From: Yuukianura sp. NJ FZ-2021
Taxonomy: Eukaryota
DNA: 64,000 nt
NCBI GenBank assembly: GCA_046563655.1
Contig: CM102287.1
Location: 7,812,001 to 7,876,000, forward strand
Direction: 5' to 3'
Position 1 is the first letter of the stretch, and each line of letters begins with the position of its first letter. The notes under the pieces were generated by a model. The model worked only from the letters and a program-made list of their open reading frames with translations. It had not been told where the DNA came from and ran no database searches. The translations under genes and the position numbers were made by a program. Below are positions 33,396 to 62,308 of the stretch, in pieces.

Positions 33396-33408
33396 TGACC
33401 TTTGACCT
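33396..33408. promoter_or_regulatory. Perfect DR1 element (TGACCTTTGACCT)
   Basis: Exact match between ADAMTS and the BTB-ZF gene. Function is inferred. Confidence 0.45.
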
Positions 33409-35696
33409 CGTACTTTTTAGTCCTCATTCTCTACGAAATTGTTTTGTTAACCTAAAACATCTTAAAGCCGCTTTCCCCAAGAAATTTCTCCAGGGTCAGT
33501 CATTTCTAGTAGAGATTTTTCCAGAAATCAACAGTCCACACCCACCGTCCAGAAAATTTTGGCCAAACTTTGGGCCTGAGCAGCACATACGACTTCTTTT
33601 CCCGGATTCCGAGTGAACATTGTTCCTGGAAGGCACGCAACGGTTATTGAACACAACCTTAGGCTTTTTTCAACGTAAGCTTCAATAAGCTTTCCCAACG
33701 GCCAGGGAAAGGGACAACCTGCGACACAAGTAAGTTTTTTGGCCTCTCCTTTCGCCTGTCTACCCCGCACAAAATCCAAGACCAACCAGGAGAACCGTCG
33801 TCAGTCGACACCGTGTAACCCAACCTAGCCAAGCCAGGAACTTTGGCTCTCCGCTTGGAAAACCTTTGGACTTCAAGTCCAAAACTTGCATTCCCCGTCC
33901 AAACACTGAAACTCTTGTGGTTTCTCCTTCCAGAACCACGGATACATCCAACAGAACTCCAAAACCTTCAGTTTAGTTGTCGAGATAAAGGATATTCAAC
34001 CGTCACTAGCACTTTTTGCTAAAGCTCAAAGCCAACTAAAACTCGCCAACCTCCCCAAGTGCCGCCATTCTACTCCCAGCAGCCTCTCGGGGCAGAGTCT
34101 CTTGACCTCAATTCAGTTTCTCCAAACATCTCAAATCAATTTTTCCACACGTAAGCAACACAGCAGCGCAGATATCCAGGAAAAACTAAACTTTTCTTGA
34201 AGAATACGCCGTAAGTAATACTGAACAGGGAGTCAACCTTCCAGAAAAGTTGTACCATCAAGAAACACTTCTTTCTGAGAAGTAATTGGACTTGAGATTC
34301 ATCGCAATAGGAAGGAATTGGTAAGTTCAGATTTTCTGGTTCTGTGGCCTTCACTCCTTCGTCCTCTTTTTGGGGCCTCTCATTTCTATTGTTTCGTTCT
34401 TCTCTCTCCTTGGTTTGGGTATTCGTTGCAAAGCTGACTATTTTCTGCTGCTTGCTGTGCTGATGTAGTACTGTAGGCTGGTCGTTACGTAATCTTCATC
34501 GCATGAGTTTCTTTCTCAAGGACATTTTACAATTTACTCAGGGACTTGACGACCAGCCAGCCTCCCAGTTTAGTTTTCCAAGTCCAAACTGCTGAATCAT
34601 TGGCGCTGAGCTGTCTCTGCTGCTACTCGGCTTAGATTTCATAAACGGAAGTCGTTTCATAAACGTTGAAATTTTAACTTACTCTAAAGTTAGTGGTGGC
34701 ATTTTGTAGTTTTGAGTGAAGTGCTTGGAATCACGGCTTAATTTTGTCGGAAAAGGTAAACAAAGAATAGTAGCCGCCATTTTTGTTTTGTTTTGAGACG
34801 GGTGTTTAAAAACGCGGGGTTTAAATTAATTCAAAAATTCAAAATTCCCGCCAAATTAAAACCCGTGGGACCCGAAAGGAGGCCCCAAATAAATCAGGGA
34901 TTTCATCAGGATCAAGATAAGAGTTTATTATTCAAGGAATGTTCTGCGAGAGTTATTCCTATCCGACAGCTTAACGTTTTTCGAATAATTATTGGGAAAA
35001 CGTTTTTCGGCATTTCGCTTGTAACTAGCGAGTGAAATTCGGTTTACCCGAATCTTCTCTTTTGTACTCCCTAGCTAAATTGGTAAGTTGTAAAAGTAGT
35101 GCTTATTCTTGGCGCCGATCATCGTACCCTAGGAAACAGGAAGGACAAAGGGTCCCTTGAAGGGTTCCTTTTTGGACAGTAGTAGGGGAATTGCGCATCA
35201 TCTCCCCAAGCAAGCCTGTTTTCTGAGCAGGAATAAGCCATGGGTTTTGGTTCTTCTACGCCCTACGCTTTAGTGCAGTCAGCCAGCCAACCAGAGGATG
35301 TTGGTTGGTGATGATGTTTTAGTTGAGTAGTTCATGGCTCTTTGGTTTGGTTGGTTGTTGGGAGCGGAGATAGAGAAATACCTCGTCGACGTCGTCCGAA
35401 GGACACTCACACAACCAACCAAGCTAACCAGCACCAGCACTAGTACCAACGCCTGCCACGAGCATTTTATATCACGAGTGGATCCTACAGAAGTGCTTGA
35501 ATACTACACAGTCTTTCTTTCACTTCTCTGCAGAACAGAAGGCGCTCTCCGTTGCTCGCTACTTCTTCAACCGCTGCGGAACCTCGTCACCAACATCGAT
35601 CCAACGTCCAAGAAACAAGTCAAGGTGAAACACGAACTCTGACGAACAGATCGGAACAGAGTTACGCTGCGAAGTCTTGGGTTGATTCCCAAGAAA

Positions 35697-38600
35697 ATGC
35701 AGCATTTCAAGGCGTCACTTGCTGGATCCCCGGCTCCAAGTCTCCAGCAAATGTTGAGTACTCCAGCTGTACTAAGGAAAAAACCGATTCCGCAACTTCT
35801 GCAGTCACATCAAGCAATGTCGGGGAATCAGCGCAATGAACCCAGAGAAAAGTGTAAGTTTTATCTATTGGAGTAGGAGATAACATGGTTATTGCGCAGG
35901 CGCGGTGCTTTATTAATACTTTTTTATTTGATTCCAGATATGCGTTTGCGTGGAAAAATGCGGATACTCCAGAATGCATACCTTCAAGCCGGTGACATCG
36001 CTGATCGTGATGCTGATGTCGTTTTTGTTTGTGCTGATGGGAAAGTCCGGGCACACAAAGTGGTCCTCGTGACTGCTACGCCTTTCTTCAATGACATTTT
36101 CAATGGCCAGGTAAATTCTAAAATAAGAAAGAACGAAGAATTGACCAAAACTTTCAATTTTTGTATTTCTAATCCAAAATTCGGTCGTTTTTGTTTTCTA
36201 CAGAAAGCTGGATCCATGTCATCAGTTATTGTTCCGGATATCTCAGCAGGTAATTCGCTGTCTTCGGTAATTTGCTAATTTTTACGTTACAATATCTAAG
36301 GCCTAGGCGCCAAGGGCTCCAATGCAGTGAACTATTCGTGATTTTAATACACTTTTCCTTGTTGTGAATTTATCAGCTACCATGAAGATAATCCTGCTAT
36401 TGGCATACAAAGATAATTTGACGTTGACCAAAAAACAGATGCGGGATGTGGCTTTGCATCTTCCAATGTTTGGAATGGACCTCAAAAGCTTTGTCTTTGA
36501 CGAGAATAATTTAGCCGATCAGTCAGGAACTCCTGCACCCACAATAAGAAAACCTCCACCAATGATCAGTAGACCAAACCAGGGCCAGTTTCAACAAGGA
36601 CATAAAATTCAGAGACAAATCGGTAAGATATGCAGAATACAAAGTGTCACATGAATCTTAGTTGATAACGAATCCAAACCTTAACTTAAGATGAATCACG
36701 ATTCACGAATGGACTTTCGAAATTCCTTAGGAAGTATCACAATTTCTGGTACTGGCGGAATGGGGCCGCTGAGCATGACCAGAGCTGGAGTGACACCTTC
36801 ATCCAGTGGCGATGACGACGACTTCAAGGCCCAATTCCAAGGGTACGATGGCGCCAATCCACCACCGCTGAAACAAATTCGAATTTCCACGAATGCACAA
36901 GGTCAAACTCAAATTGTCAAGAAGAAGCCGGTTGCTGTTCCGGCTGCCAACTTTCGACGTATTGCACCGAAACCAACAGATGACATGCTTCCAATTCAAC
37001 CTGCCATGGACATGACGGTGGGGAATCAGGAAATTCAGTTTGAGGATAATGGCGGTGACGATGGACAAGTTCTGGATCCAGAAAGTAAGTTCAACACAGT
37101 CTTAATTTTTAAGTTACCAATTACTTCAAATTGTTTTGTTTTACTTTGCGGTTTTGTTACAGAAGGCAGGCTTATGATTCAGGAATGGATGAAAAATGTA
37201 TCACAACCAGATGAAGATGAAGACGGGGAAGGTTCGGCACAAGCAGGAACAGGATCCGCTAATAACCAGCAGCCAAGGAATCAATGTCTCATCTGCAACA
37301 ACATTTTTGATAACCCTGAGAAATGGCGGTGGCACGAATCCCATGTAAGACGATAAACTATAAAAACGTACTTTCGACGTTAATTTTGACTTAATTTGGG
37401 AATTGTTTTTTAGCATGTCGGTTTGGGAATCTTCAAATGCGCTTTCTGTGACGAACTGTTCAGTACATCCAGAAAAGTTTACCAGCACGAAATGATGGAG
37501 CACGGAGTTTCCGGTTCTGGGACCGCACCATTAGATGAACCGCCTGGAATTCCATCAGATTTTCAAATTGTTCAAGGGCGAAAGCGACGGTTTCAAGATG
37601 ATCATCAACCGCAGGAAGAAGGACAAGAGGGGCAGGGAGAAGCGCCTCCCAGAATGACACTTGTTAGAACTGCCAATGGTTCTCACTACAGACGTATTCC
37701 TGGACAGATTACGAAGAAAGTTTTGTCAAAGCTCAGTAGGAAGTCTGGATCACCGGCATTGAGCGGTGGAACAGTTGTTAGAGCCAGTGCTACTCCAAAT
37801 ATTGCTTGTGGAAGTACCCCAGTGGAAATCGAAGATCGAAAAATGAAACAGCTTCATTGGGTAAGTAAATCTTGATGAATAATTTTTTATGAATTTTGGT
37901 ACTCAAGCGTGAAATTCTGAATACTTTCAGGTATATGTTTGCAACAAATGTCAAACATGTTCGGATTCTATGGGTAAGTTTTGTTCGATAAATCTCAATT
38001 CGAAAATCTTCAAGAATTCAATCAATGATGTTGCATTTTTCGTTTTTAGGAAAAGCACAGGCCCACTTCACCAAATGCTTCACCGACAAGTCCATTCTGT
38101 TTGAAAACTCTGTAATGAAGTACAGACAAGGATTCTATGGAAGATGTCGATGTCCTTTGTGCCCCAGAAGATACACCACAAATCATGGATTTACTATCCA
38201 CTGTGGTCACATGCACAACGACTTCCGGTAAGTGGCTTTCTCAAAAGTATCTTTGAGGTAGAAATGTAACCTTATCATGAAAATTGTATTTTTAGGCGCA
38301 AGTTCCAACATTGCAGTGCTAATGACACCGTGTCTTGCATTTCCTGCCGTAAACAATTTGAACTACCATTCCAATTTCATGCTCATTTGGGAGACGATGG
38401 AGAATGTAATGCTGCTCCAGAATATTCTGCCCATGATACATCCACAAAGTGGATTGGAACTGAAATGCCTGGAGAAAAGAACACAAGCACCACTACCAAA
38501 AAAGAATCCAAAGTCAATTCAAAGCCGCCGAAGCTTACTCCTCAAAACAGTACAATTGCCCATGGACGAACAGTGTTAGAATCCCAAGCCAGATCAACTC

Positions 38601-39784
38601 GACTTGCCAACCGACGAACAATGACAACTGAAGCGGGAGTTCCAGAAGAAGAGTTCGAACCAGCAGAATGTCCAGTCTGTGGTGACATGGAGAACAAAAT
38701 CGTGGAGCATCTCGGTACAGCTCACAAGGAAATGGAGCTCAGCGTCAGCCGAATCAGCAACTCTGCTCTGCGATGTCTCAAGTGTGCCATTAGTTTTGGC
38801 ATTGGAGACTTGGTGTCTCACGACACTTACTGCTGCATCAGAAGTAAACAGTTTCAGCATGTGAAGGAACGGAAACTGCATCATCCCAAAGAGCCAGCAG
38901 TTGAGAAGAGTTCTGCCAATGGATTGAATGCTACACGGACAATTCCAGAAGGCATTGGAACTTCGCCAGTGGACACAATGGAGTTTTTTGACCAACTCAA
39001 TTCCAAGGAATTCCTTAGAAAAGCCATGAGATGTGGAGTCTGCGGCAGAATCAATTCCAAACTGGGCATCATTGCCGACTGTCTCCGATCCCACGGAATC
39101 TACCGATGTGCCCTTTGCTTAAATTCGTATTCTGACAAGAATCTTTACTCAACTCATCTTCGGACAGTACACACAGGGGAGAAGGGAAGACTCAAGTGTC
39201 CACTGTGTGACCGAGCCCAGTTTGTCAATGCTGGACAAGTAGCTGGTCACTTGCTGAATGCTCACTGGCTAAAACTTATTCAAGAGATCTACAGAGATGA
39301 CCGTGAAACTAATCAGAGTCAGGATACGAAGCCGAGAGTTTCGACGCCGCCAGTATCCACATCAAAGGCAGATGAATCTTCAGATGACAAGAAAAGTATT
39401 GTAGATCCAAAAGTAGAGATTCCGGATGAGGACAGCAAAGATGATGATTCTGATGACAGAAATGAAGAAGCGGCTGATGATGCTGATGCTGGTGACAGCG
39501 ACGTCTCTATGAAGAAAACTGAACAGCAAGAACAAGCAGAGGACGGAGATGATGAGCCAGAGGATCCTGAGGAAGAAACTAATGAAGCTGATGCTGAAGA
39601 TGACAATGACGCTGAAGATGATGAGGACATTGACGATGTCAATGGCAACCCTAAAGATGACGAAGACGCTAACGATGTCAATGAAGATGAGCCAGCAGAC
39701 GAAGATGACATGGCAGACATTCCAGAGCAAACGGCTGAAGATGAAGAAGGGTCTAACAGTCCAACGGACGACAAAAATGATTAA
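35697..39784 (+). CDS. BTB/POZ domain and C2H2 zinc-finger transcription factor with acidic C-terminal tail
   Basis: BTB signature DVVFVCADGKVRAHKVVLVTATPFFNDIF; several C2H2 fingers (CAFCDELF..HEMMEH, CALCLNSY..HLRTVHTGEK, CPLCDR..HLLNAH); D/E-rich tail. Exons: 35697-35853, 35938-36110, 36204-36249, 36377-36622, 36731-37084, 37163-37344, 37414-37860, 37931-37973, 38050-38227, 38296-39784. Confidence 0.88.
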
Positions 39785-59780: not shown

Positions 59781-62308
59781 ATGCGTGGATCCATATTTCC
59801 ATGTTTACTAATTTTAATTACATTTTATCCGTTTCCATCTAGAACTACTGCAGGATGGCTACGGTTTTGTGCAAGTGGAGCAACGTTTCGAGCTTCTGCA
59901 GTCGACTGTACCGGTGGCTATTGGCTCAAGAAAACTGCTACTCCACAGTGCGTCTGCGCTCATGGCATGTAAGTCTGCATTTTCTTCACAAATTTTGAAT
60001 TTCTCACGAATTTCCACAAATTTTCAAAATTCTGATTAATTCTGGAGCGTTTTCGAATGTTTGACCTTGACACCAATTTTTTTCAACTCATGTCAACAGA
60101 TGGATCCTGTCTAAAGGATATTGTGACCCCAATTTCGCAATTGTCGTAGGCGTTGAAGGTACATGCTTTGCATTCAGCACTGAGGTGAGTCGCTAATCAA
60201 AATCCAACGTTATTTGCTGATTGATGCTCAGATTAATCTATGAAAGTTAAGCTAAAAGTTTACTTTGTCACATTAGGTTCGATGGATTCGTATGGTTGGA
60301 ATACCGGATAATCCATTTGCTCCGTACTACTTCATTTCAAATAAAGGTTTTGATAAAGTTGAAGCCGTCGCTTCGTCAGCCACCAGCAAACAACTAACTG
60401 GAAGATCAATATATGCTGCAGCAATCAATCCCTCCAGATCACTTCAAAGTACAGATGGAACTGTGTGTCTAAAGCCAAAACGTGTAGAACTGTCGCTAGG
60501 CAACGGAAGTCAATCTATGAATGATATTTCGGAAGACGCAGTTCGTGAAGTACGTCCAGACGGATTTAGTTTTGGTCCTATCGAAGCTGAGGAAAAGTCA
60601 TGGTCATTTCAACAATTGTCAGTATGTGAACCACATGCCAATGAATTCGCATACGTTTATGGAGTCAAGCCGAACCAATTTTACCATAGTAAGAAAATCG
60701 AGAAAGTTTTTTTGAAATGGTTTTGTAAAACAATGTTCAATGCCAAAGTTTTTGAATTTTTTCAGACAATGAGCTAGTCAATTCCAGTGCCATTCCGAAT
60801 ACCTGTAACACTACATGTATTGCCGATAATGAGCCGATTCCGGGTGACGATGATGATTTGACTACAGAAAAACCGGGTAACGGAACAGTAGATGATGGTG
60901 ATGAACCGTCGGATGAAGTTGAGCGTCCAGAAGCTGAATTTGAAAAGCCCTGTGTTGCTTGGGATCCAAAATGGAATGCAATTCCGAATAGAACTGAAAT
61001 GGAAATAAGGGAACAGTCGAAGCGATTGGCCATAACTCAAATTAATTACTCGTTGTTCAAACATACAGCGCCGGTAGTGAACTTAACTGAATACAAGATG
61101 TTTCAAAAGGCACGCCGAGTCATGGAAAAAGTTTGTCCGAAAGATGAAGTACCACCGCTGTTTTTACGCGGTGTTTTACGAATGTTCCGGCATGCTTTGA
61201 ACGAAAGTCATGAAAGTTATCCATATCGAACGACTGGAGATGAACTGGAAACTACGAGAATCATGGATGCGCTGACGAAATGTTACGAAGATCCACAAAC
61301 TCAACCGATGAAGTTCATTTACAACGAAACTGTGTGTCCCAAGAAGGTATTCCAGTAAAGAACAAAAATTTTCAAAATTTTAAAAACCATGTTGTATTTT
61401 TGGAATTTTGCAGTTTTCGGTGGTTGTCGTAGTTGGAGCGGATCAGAAGCCGAAAAAAGTTGCCAGTGCTACGGCTTGTTTGGACAGATTCAACTACACT
61501 GGGCTGGATTACATTGTTGAGGTGGCTTGGAAAGTTGTGCTCTTCTCACACTACTTTTGTGCACGCCACTTCAATTCAACCAGTTACGATCACAGTCGGT
61601 TCATGGAAAAATTATCACTGTTCTTCAATAGAGAAATTCAACATCGCTGGTACGTCTGAACACAACATTCGGCAAAAAATTTGGCGATTTTTTAAAATAT
61701 GAATTTAGTTGAGATAACGTTTAACTATCGTCATTGTAGCCGTTGCCACTTTGGTGGTACAATATGTGGCTACGCTGTACGGCTACATATGTTGCGACAT
61801 TAGGGTGGCTTTGGTTAGGTTACAGTGGCTACAAATGTTGCCATGAATTTTGTTTTACCTTAGGTTTCATCCAGGAAAATCGTTGGATGTAATGAACTAC
61901 GTTTTTCGGACGTATGACCTTCAAAAAATTGCTTTCGGACTCGATCGATGTGTTGGAGCCGCTCGATCCTCTTCACCTTACCGGAAATGGGTTTTGCGAC
62001 CGAAATTTGAGCAATATTGTTGGGCAGACAATGAGTAAGTATGATGAAAAGCAACTAAAACTTTGTATTTTTTACTTTTATTGCCTACTGATTAATTAAT
62101 ATTTGTTCTTAGCTACAATGGAAATGATCCAGCCAATAATAAGAATGCGAATTCATCGTTGACCCCTTACCTTCAAACTACTGTAACTTGGGAAGGAACT
62201 GCTTACTGTCTCAATAGTTGGAAGGATCCCATTACAATTATGTCCGGGTACAAAGCAGATGCAAAGAGCGCGTGTGACAAAGAAGGAAGTGCTAACATTT
62301 TTGTCTGA
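59781..62308 (+). CDS. Secreted protein of unknown family, 7 exons
   Basis: Signal peptide; phase-compatible GT-AG exons 59781-59968, 60100-60184, 60277-60688, 60766-61346, 61414-61649, 61864-62034, 62113-62308 give one open frame ending ...CDKEGSANIFV*. Confidence 0.8.

What the first reader, a model, noticed from the sequence alone, without database searches (positions are those of the whole stretch)
35083..35533. Helix-dense GC island inside a 5'-UTR intron of the BTB-ZF gene: candidate intron-encoded structured RNA
Seen: the interval between a strong donor (GTAAGT, 35083) and the acceptor at 35533 is more GC-rich than other introns and is tiled with complementary segments. These are GCTTATTCTT 35101-10 : AGGAATAAGC 35229-38; hairpin 35147-71; GGGGA 35185-89 : TCCCC 35203-07; AGCCATGG 35236-43 : TCATGGCT 35332-39; GCCAGCCAAC 35282-91 : GTTGGTTGGT 35300-09; TTGGTTGGTTGT 35347-58 : ACAACCAACCAA 35411-22; and AGCATTTT 35461-68 : GAAGTGCT 35490-97. 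Many pairs are G-U wobbles, which suggests RNA-level structure on the + strand. A box-C-like GTGATGA lies at 35308. Known: insect and crustacean RNase P RNAs, and sno/scaRNAs, reside in Pol II host introns. However, I could not find the RNase P/MRP CR-I motif or a CCTAA telomerase template. Inference: an unclassified ~400 nt intronic ncRNA or a splicing-regulatory structure.
Basis: partly seen in the sequence, partly recalled or inferred. Interest (0 to 1): 0.7.

Follow-up and report, generated by a model that had tools for sequence, protein, structure and literature searches.

The report
Structured leader intron, springtail BTB gene
A long intron in the untranslated leader of a springtail zinc-finger gene holds one strong hairpin and an odd splicing branch site, and probably helps regulate that gene's own splicing and translation, but it matches no known RNA family and nothing yet shows that it is a separate RNA.

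Summary
The listed helices are real and the interval is single-copy. The whole 451 nt folds little better than shuffles (z -1.55). Only 35337-35432 is exceptional (z -4.5; lowest energy of 532 tiles). Two listed helices are improbable in the ensemble. GC is high against coding-region introns but not against the other leader introns.

Rfam finds nothing. RNase P, MRP and U3 lie elsewhere in the genome. The telomerase template match is only 6 nt. No 7SK was found anywhere (inconclusive).

New here: the branch region is a 9-bp perfect complement of this genome's U2 with no bulged A. A competing hairpin covers the pyrimidine tract. Retention would add five upstream AUGs. A second sample is invariant over 244 nt, like the rest of the leader.

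Best reading (0.42): a cis-acting, retention-prone leader intron. An ordinary constrained leader scores 0.30 and a discrete ncRNA 0.18. There are no RNA data or orthologous introns, so covariation is untested. The scan had no earlier look-alike.

The parts
33496..33501 (+). Initiator-like TCAGTC, putative start of a ~2.2-kb leader
   Evidence: one of 6 Inr-like words in 33400-35700; no ATG on + between 33500 and 34462; Inr consensus recalled; inferred
35075..35082 (+). Candidate 8-nt micro-exon between a pyrimidine tract/TAG acceptor (35074) and the donor
   Evidence: sequence; inferred, no RNA data
35083..35533 (+). Putative last 5'-leader intron (GTAAGT ... CTGCAG), 451 nt, GC 0.48
   Evidence: splicing not shown
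35101..35238 (+). Domain I: closing helix 35101-11:35228-38, inner helix 35130-40:35215-25, hairpin 35185-35207
   Evidence: pair probabilities 0.6-1.0 but z only -1.6 and -1.1 to -1.3 in block shuffles
35282..35309 (+). 10-bp hairpin GCCAGCCAAC:GTTGGTTGGT; context-dependent
   Evidence: P about 0.96 in the intron alone, about 0.02 with flanking exons
35337..35432 (+). Core hairpin: 17-bp helix 35342-58:35411-27 capped by a three-way junction; the only clearly non-random structure
   Evidence: z -4.46, 0 of 200 shuffles; 0 of 200 block shuffles; lowest MFE and second-lowest z of 532 tiles; P about 1.0 in every context
35424..35428 (+). The only CTAA/yTAAC word in the intron, 105 nt from the 3' end, buried in the core helix
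   Evidence: unpaired probability 0.00-0.14 for CUAA; use as a branch point is doubtful because several AGs lie downstream (sequence)
35459..35499 (+). Alternative helix CGAGCATTTT:GAAGTGCTTG, mutually exclusive with the pyrimidine-tract hairpin
   Evidence: P 0.17 or less; forced folds -19.0 versus -22.8 kcal/mol
35489..35527 (+). Hairpin AGAAGTG:CACTTCT covering the branch region and pyrimidine tract
   Evidence: P 0.82-0.99; weak alone (-9.8 kcal/mol, z -1.4 to -1.8)
35501..35509 (+). ATACTACAC: 9-bp perfect complement of U2 nt 32-40 with no bulged A, 25-33 nt before the 3' end
   Evidence: using U2 from this genome; strongest U2 duplex of 14 acceptors; 1 copy in the window on both strands
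35240..35311 (+). uORF of 23 aa (GCC ATG G), present only if the intron is retained
35334..35642 (+). uORF of 102 aa starting in the intron and ending 54 nt before the main AUG; no credible homolog
35666..35703 (+). Hairpin that includes the main start codon (35697)
   Evidence: 35600-35730 z -2.94, 1 of 200 shuffles
35697..39784 (+). Host gene CDS: BTB plus C2H2 zinc fingers, single-copy, with relatives in other springtails

Best explanation
The interval is the last intron of a long, AUG-poor 5' leader of a springtail BTB-zinc-finger gene, and it works in cis as a brake on that gene's expression. Shown in the sequence or by computation: the splice signals, the stable core hairpin, the U2 complement, the 3' hairpin and the uAUGs. 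Inferred: the 3' splice region is poorly usable, because its branch sequence pairs with U2 over 9 bp without the bulged adenosine needed for branching, and because AGAAGUG (35489-95) can pair with the pyrimidine tract. The same segment can instead pair upstream (35459-68) and free the tract. Splicing would therefore be slow or conditional. Transcripts that retain the intron carry five upstream AUGs and a -44 kcal/mol hairpin ahead of the main AUG, so they would be held in the nucleus, poorly translated or degraded. The core hairpin would act as a protein-binding or scanning-blocking element. The trigger is unknown.
For: U2 complement: strongest of 14 acceptors (-12.1 versus -0.6 to -9.0 kcal/mol) and at the usual branch distance (21-34 nt in human introns per PMC2367711 passages). 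Chance is about 1e-4 per intron before multiple testing. This bulge-less word is not a common branch motif here (4 versus 4 control before TTTCAG), whereas TACTAAC is enriched (204 versus 121). The pyrimidine-tract hairpin has P 0.82-0.99 in 5 of 5 contexts. The spliced leader from the micro-exon has 0 uAUGs and the retained one has 5. Structure extends beyond the intron to the main AUG. A second sample shows 0 substitutions in 244 intron nt versus 7 listed in 230 nt of coding-region introns (p 0.006, sites not independent).
Against: No RNA data: neither splicing nor retention is shown. The 3' hairpin is weak alone (z -1.4 to -1.8) and pyrimidine-tract accessibility (0.32) lies within the range of the 13 other acceptors (0.18-0.65). 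The U2 word was noticed after looking at many features. The invariance does not differ from the rest of the leader (0/244 versus 3/466, p 0.55) and is only borderline against all other shown records (0/244 versus 29/1968, p 0.067). A switch between the (TTGG)/(CCAA) arms is not supported: the alternatives cost 11-21 kcal/mol. No role is shown for the core hairpin, which lies about 70 nt from the branch region.
Confidence: 0.42

Rival explanations
1. An ordinary, constrained 5'-leader intron of a transcription-factor gene. It is GC-rich and slowly evolving because of promoter-proximal or DNA-level regulatory elements. The helices are mostly chance, and the main hairpin arises from (TTGG)/(CCAA)-rich low-complexity arms.
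For: Whole-interval z -1.55. Other leader introns have similar GC and similar invariance. 3 of 532 tiles reach z -4 or lower, and 5 helices of 17 bp or more occur in the window. The arms recur in 34 unrelated metagenome palindromes.
Against: The hairpin survives shuffles that keep local composition (0 of 200 at block sizes 28 and 40) and has the lowest MFE of all 532 tiles. The other four helices of 17 bp or more hold only 1-4 G-C pairs against 6 here. The U2 word is rare.
Confidence: 0.3
2. A discrete, stable intron-encoded ncRNA of no known family (sisRNA-like or new), released after splicing, with domain I, the 10-bp hairpin and the three-way-junction hairpin as its domains.
For: Single copy. 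Ordered multi-domain fold with high pair probabilities in domain I and the core hairpin. Invariant over 244 nt in a second sample. This genome does host RNase P RNA in an intron.
Against: There are no end-protecting motifs: no 5' box C, no 3' box D, no H box before a terminal hairpin. The 5' and 3' ends do not pair. A rare haplotype in run X1 differs by 7 letters and 8 gap letters over 35060-35179. Structure is not bounded by the intron.
Confidence: 0.18
3. A diverged member of a known family moved into an intron, with 7SK the only open case; RNase P, MRP, U3, telomerase RNA, sno/scaRNA and miRNA are the others.
For: Neither 7SK model finds a gene anywhere in the genome (both say that this does not show absence). 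The length is close to the 444-nt Drosophila 7SK (PMC8406779 passage).
Against: No Rfam hit even at E up to 10. RNase P, MRP and U3 are found elsewhere. The two GAUC words lie 364 nt apart and unpaired with each other. No match to this genome's snRNA promoter core upstream. The template match is 6 nt and buried.
Confidence: 0.06
4. The constraint is on the 102-aa ORF at 35334-35642, translated from a retained-intron or alternative-start transcript.
For: Open frame of 102 codons with a fair start context.
Against: No homolog at E 1 or lower among 2 candidates. The 2 hits in the 50% library are long repetitive Thr-rich proteins with 7-9 stretches. Only a weak Pfam match (E 0.12, below cut-off).
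Confidence: 0.04

Closest known systems
Leader (5'-UTR) introns combined with uORFs that lower translation (PMC5961209; abstract and passages seen)
   Same: Intron in the mRNA leader of a regulatory gene, uAUGs next to it, structured leader.
   Different: That study concerns spliced leaders in five model species. Here the uAUGs lie inside the intron and appear only on retention, and none of this is shown experimentally.
Detained or retained introns whose branch point or pyrimidine tract is hidden by RNA structure (general mechanism, recalled; search listed one review only, PMC8150589, listing seen)
   Same: Strong donor, structured 3' splice region, long GC-rich intron among short AT-rich ones.
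   Different: The bulge-less 9-bp U2 complement is not a feature I found described: 0 papers held all five terms. Retention is not shown.
Fungal NMT1-type TPP riboswitch in a 5'-UTR intron (recalled, no call)
   Same: Architecture only: a structured leader intron, mutually exclusive pairings near a splice site, uORFs in the unspliced form.
   Different: No riboswitch family matches in Rfam, and no ligand or switching is shown.
Intron-embedded RNase P RNA of insects and crustaceans (PMC4287351; passages seen)
   Same: Structured, single-copy sequence in the sense orientation in a Pol II intron.
   Different: The signature words are missing, and the real RNase P RNA of this genome lies in another intron on C4.
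Intronic H/ACA telomerase RNA of Caenorhabditis (PMC12921731; passages seen)
   Same: Intron of similar size, with an ACA near the 3' end.
   Different: The template match is 6 nt (repeat plus 1), lies near the 3' end and is paired. That paper required repeat plus 2 or more, near the 5' end, with H/ACA boxes.

Membership tests
Nuclear RNase P RNA | Match to RF00009; CR-I/CR-V words forming P4 | tested here: not met
   No hit; 3 mismatches to each of this genome's own words; true gene at C4:7471756-7472059, 139 bits
RNase MRP RNA | Match to RF00030; mCR-I/mCR-V | tested here: not met
   two matches over the cut-off on C3
Telomerase RNA | Single-stranded template of at least one repeat plus 2 nt for the genome's TTAGG repeat, near the 5' end | tested here: not met
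   Telomeres are TTAGG at 3 of 16 contig ends read; the longest match is CTAACC, 6 nt, at 35424 and paired
Telomerase RNA | Pseudoknot with triple helix after the template; CR4/5 | not tested
   No pseudoknot-aware folding was run; the three-way junction lies before the 6-nt word, not after it
Box H/ACA sno/scaRNA | Hairpin - H box (ANANNA) - hairpin - ACA | tested here: not met
   ACA at 35506/35508 follows a hairpin, but none of the 9 ANANNA words lies in a hinge before it; the ACA overlaps the branch region
Box C/D sno/scaRNA and U3 | 5' box C and 3' box D (CUGA) with a guide upstream of D or D' | tested here: not met
   The only RUGAUGA is at 35308 and the only CUGA at 35223, upstream of it; U3 is found twice on C7; the U2 complement is not followed by a D box
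Box C/D and H/ACA guides | Antisense element to rRNA | not tested
   rRNA genes of this genome were not fetched; only U2, U3, RNase P and MRP were tested
7SK snRNA | Match to RF01052 or RF00100 | tested here: inconclusive
   No hit here and none genome-wide, with no positive control
7SK snRNA | 5'-3' closing stem, paired GAUC stem, 3' hairpin with oligo-U end, PSE promoter | tested here: not met
   No end-to-end pairing; GAUC at 35117 and 35481 only; no T4 run after 35468 and no PSE core in 33400-35540 on +; features from PMC8406779 passages and recall
miRNA precursor | About 33-bp unbranched stem and 22-nt reads with precise ends | tested here: inconclusive
   The stem is about 21-24 bp with a branched top and low-complexity arms; no small-RNA data; stem criterion recalled
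Structure-regulated retained or detained leader intron | Intron retained in part of the transcripts | not testable with these tools
   No RNA run listed
Structure-regulated retained or detained leader intron | Structure overlapping a splice signal | tested here: inconclusive
   Predicted at P 0.82-0.99, but accessibility is not exceptional among 14 acceptors
Structure-regulated retained or detained leader intron | Covariation of the helices in orthologs | not testable with these tools
   Orthologous proteins were found but no DNA for them; the one covering sample has no substitution to score
Dispersed repeat or transposon | Many genomic copies | tested here: not met
   1 match in the genome for each of two queries

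The most novel reading that the evidence does not exclude
The intron is a self-contained RNA switch in an animal leader. A bulge-less, fully U2-complementary branch site traps the spliceosome, and a two-state pairing at the 3' splice site, controlled by a ligand or protein that binds the three-way-junction hairpin, decides release. Alternatively the intron is released as a new class of stable ncRNA, possibly standing in for the 7SK that could not be found in this genome.
Probability: 0.1. Interest if true: 0.75.

Novelty: new member of a known kind. Interest (0 to 1): 0.3.

Why it matters
Under the best reading it is one more structured, retention-prone leader intron controlling a lineage-specific transcription factor, of modest interest. 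The one unusual trait is a natural branch region that pairs with U2 over 9 bp without a bulged adenosine, which would offer a natural test of the bulged-duplex model of branching. If the intron proved to be a stable RNA or a ligand-controlled splice switch, it would be a new kind of element in hexapods. Springtail 7SK also remains unfound here.

Tried and rejected
Rfam: 0 hits at gathering score in 64 kb; 2 chance hits at E 5-7, both outside the intron.

Sequencing runs: no RNA holder listed, which says nothing about expression. X5 does not cover 35083-35205 or 35450-35522; this is not read as divergence.

Run X1: one contig spans 35184-35753 at full depth while rare haplotypes diverge in 34737-35179. 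I did not count this as constraint, because 36245-37162, which includes ordinary introns, is also one contig.

Orthologous DNA: the protein scan of metagenomes confirmed 0 of 102 candidate stretches. The helix pattern gave 34 loci, all unrelated palindromes matched only in the arms. Model R1 was built from two identical copies of the hairpin and finds only itself in the window.

Four-arm conformational switch (35280-95, 35299-309, 35342-58, 35411-33): rejected, the alternatives have P about 0 and cost 11-21 kcal/mol.

Distal branch point CTAAC at 35424 as the working site: not favoured, because several AGs follow it and a better U2 match lies at 35501.

U2-modification guide: no box geometry fits.

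Repeated GCATTTT...GAAGTGCT motif: 16 genome matches versus 6 control, 4 of them one repeated sequence, so no clear family.

Telomere variants (TTAG followed by AAG runs) do not match anything in the intron.

Literature: 8 searches listed no paper on this gene or element, and none was aimed at springtail ncRNA catalogues. No supplements were read; such catalogues could bear on novelty.

Full report
Setting. The window lies on contig C5 of a 98.7-Mb eukaryotic assembly. The gene downstream of the finding starts at ATG 35697 and encodes a BTB domain (Pfam PF00651, 30 bits, above the cut-off) followed by C2H2 zinc fingers. Its zinc-finger part found one relative, named by the source as Orchesella dallaii, at 33% identity. 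That protein found five more, including Orchesella cincta and Allacma fusca, and all 6 of 6 align to the window gene. The BTB exon has one match in the genome. The host is therefore a single-copy BTB-zinc-finger gene with springtail relatives, and the organism is inferred to be a springtail. Upstream lies about 2.2 kb with an initiator-like word at 33496, no ATG for the first 960 nt and several GTAAG donors. I read this as a long multi-intron leader; no RNA confirms it.

Observation check. All six listed helices are complementary as written, but only 6 of their 53 pairs are G-U. The intron has GC 0.48 against 0.25-0.38 in ten coding-region introns, yet the other three leader introns are 0.50, 0.44 and 0.38. 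The whole interval folds to -140.1 kcal/mol, z -1.55, with 8 of 100 shuffles as good. The signal is concentrated in 35337-35432: z -4.46 with 0 of 200 shuffles, 0 of 200 in two block-shuffle controls that keep local composition, and the lowest energy and second-lowest z among 532 non-overlapping 120-nt tiles (the tiling was anchored on this hairpin, which favours it). Domain I (35101-35238) is well-defined in the ensemble but not significant. Structure of similar strength continues outside the intron, at 34940-35082 and over the main AUG. The interval is single-copy.

Known families. Rfam gives nothing at gathering score and nothing in the intron at E up to 10. RNase P RNA is on C4 (139 bits), inside a 531-nt GT-AG interval, as described for insects and crustaceans (PMC4287351, passages). 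MRP has two matches on C3 and U3 two on C7. Telomeres are TTAGG at 3 of the 16 contig ends read. The intron offers only CTAACC, 6 nt, near its 3' end and inside the core helix. That is below the repeat-plus-2 criterion of PMC12921731 (passages), and it lies at the wrong end compared with the layouts in that paper and in PMC11892584 (passages). An earlier scan note proposes a telomerase RNA elsewhere in this genome (e1-7468907); I did not check it. The C/D boxes are in the wrong order and no H box precedes the terminal hairpin. Neither 7SK model rings anywhere in the genome, without a positive control. The interval lacks end-to-end pairing, a paired GAUC stem, an oligo-U end and the snRNA promoter core seen upstream of this genome's U2 and U3 genes (features from PMC8406779 passages, and recall).

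Variation. Five DNA runs were listed, none RNA; I laid 2 of the 5. X5, labelled as another organism and of depth about 3, gave 10 records, of which 8 are shown. One covers 35206-35449 with 0 differences. The seven others carry 29 substitutions in 1968 nt (Fisher p 0.067). Coding-region introns carry 7 listed substitutions in 230 nt (p 0.006; 24 rows of the table were not shown, and sites are not independent). Other leader DNA carries 3 in 466 nt (p 0.55). So the intron varies less than ordinary introns but no less than the rest of the leader. In X1, rare haplotypes (depth 9 and 26 beside 156) diverge strongly in 34737-35179, including 7 letters and 8 gap letters over 35060-35179, while one contig covers 35184-35753. 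The first ~100 nt of the interval therefore seem to tolerate change. No substitution fell in a helix of the covered part, so covariation could not be scored. Both metagenome scans failed to give orthologous DNA.

New features at the 3' end. Using this genome's U2, the only perfect complement of 8 nt or more in the intron is ATACTACAC at 35501-35509, pairing U2 nt 32-40, 25-33 nt before the intron end. It is the strongest U2 duplex among 14 acceptors examined and occurs once in the window on either strand. It lacks the adenosine that normally bulges out of the branch duplex (PMC2367711, passages; Query et al. 1994 was seen only as a title in that reference list, and its content is recalled). 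No ordinary yUrAy word lies in the last 50 nt. Genome-wide the word is not enriched before TTTCAG (4 versus 4), while TACTAAC is (204 versus 121). Against this, the hairpin is weak alone and the tract is no less accessible than at several other acceptors. The spliced leader from the micro-exon has no upstream AUG; the retained form has five, including a 102-codon frame with no credible homolog.

Mechanism. Shown by sequence or computation: splice signals, one stable hairpin with a three-way junction, the bulge-less U2 complement, the competing 3' pairings, the intron-borne uAUGs, single copy, low variation. Inferred: that the interval is spliced, that splicing is slow or conditional, and that the retained form is unproductive (general support for leader introns plus uORFs lowering translation: PMC5961209, passages). 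Unknown: the trigger and the role of the core hairpin. I give this cis-regulatory reading 0.42, an ordinary constrained leader 0.30, a discrete new ncRNA 0.18 (background on intron-derived RNAs: PMC5054931, passages), a diverged known family 0.06 and a coding uORF 0.04.

Novelty and verdict. It works most like a structure-regulated, retained leader intron, a known kind; membership is untested because retention and covariation could not be examined. Eight literature searches listed nothing on this element, and the scan's notes hold no look-alike. Interest 0.3. The boldest reading not excluded, a self-contained splice switch or a new stable RNA, has probability about 0.1.

Noticed in passing
L002 (G000:C4:7471756-7472059, - strand): RNase P RNA lies in a 531-nt GT-AG interval between coding-looking exons. 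This extends the intron-embedded type to a probable springtail; PMC4287351 says Entognatha could not be examined then.
   Followed up: partly
L019, L020 (G000:C3:12367871-12370260): Two RNase MRP matches 2.1 kb apart (82.5 and 52.2 bits).
   Followed up: no
L006 1-300 (C4 start) and L017 (C7 end): TTAGG telomere arrays are interrupted by many TTAG/TTG plus (AAG)n units, next to a short tandem satellite shared by both ends; the C8 start array is almost pure TTAGG. This could be template slippage or a basecalling artefact.
   Followed up: no
G000 whole genome: No 7SK was found with RF01052 or RF00100 (no positive control).
   Followed up: partly
window 61721-61840: Long unbranched hairpin (-45.6 kcal/mol, z -3.9, 0 of 200 shuffles) with no Rfam match; miRNA-like or hairpin-RNA-like.
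   Followed up: partly
window 34699-34727 and 35462-35499: GCATTTT followed by GAAGTGCTTG occurs twice in this leader; these are the only two GAAGTGCTTG on the + strand of the window. No clear genome-wide family (16 versus 6 control).
   Followed up: partly
window 34737-35179: Short block with strongly divergent rare haplotypes in run X1 (29 letters and 17 gap letters in 207 nt; 116 nt replaced by 118 others), although 34940-35082 folds into three neat hairpins.
   Followed up: partly
window 35075-35082: Possible 8-nt micro-exon or recursive-splice-like site directly before the donor.
   Followed up: no
window 34476-34558: 12-bp long-range helix in the upstream leader (z about -2).
   Followed up: partly
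L072-L075 upstream regions: U2 and U3 genes share an upstream word (AATT...GTGTATGG), a likely snRNA promoter element that could guide a search for 7SK.
   Followed up: partly
L043, L044, L047, L049, L050, L053-L055, L057, L059, L061, L064, L066, L068: Two families of long perfect palindromes with TGGTTGGTTGT arms recur in related metagenome contigs; unrelated to this finding.
   Followed up: no
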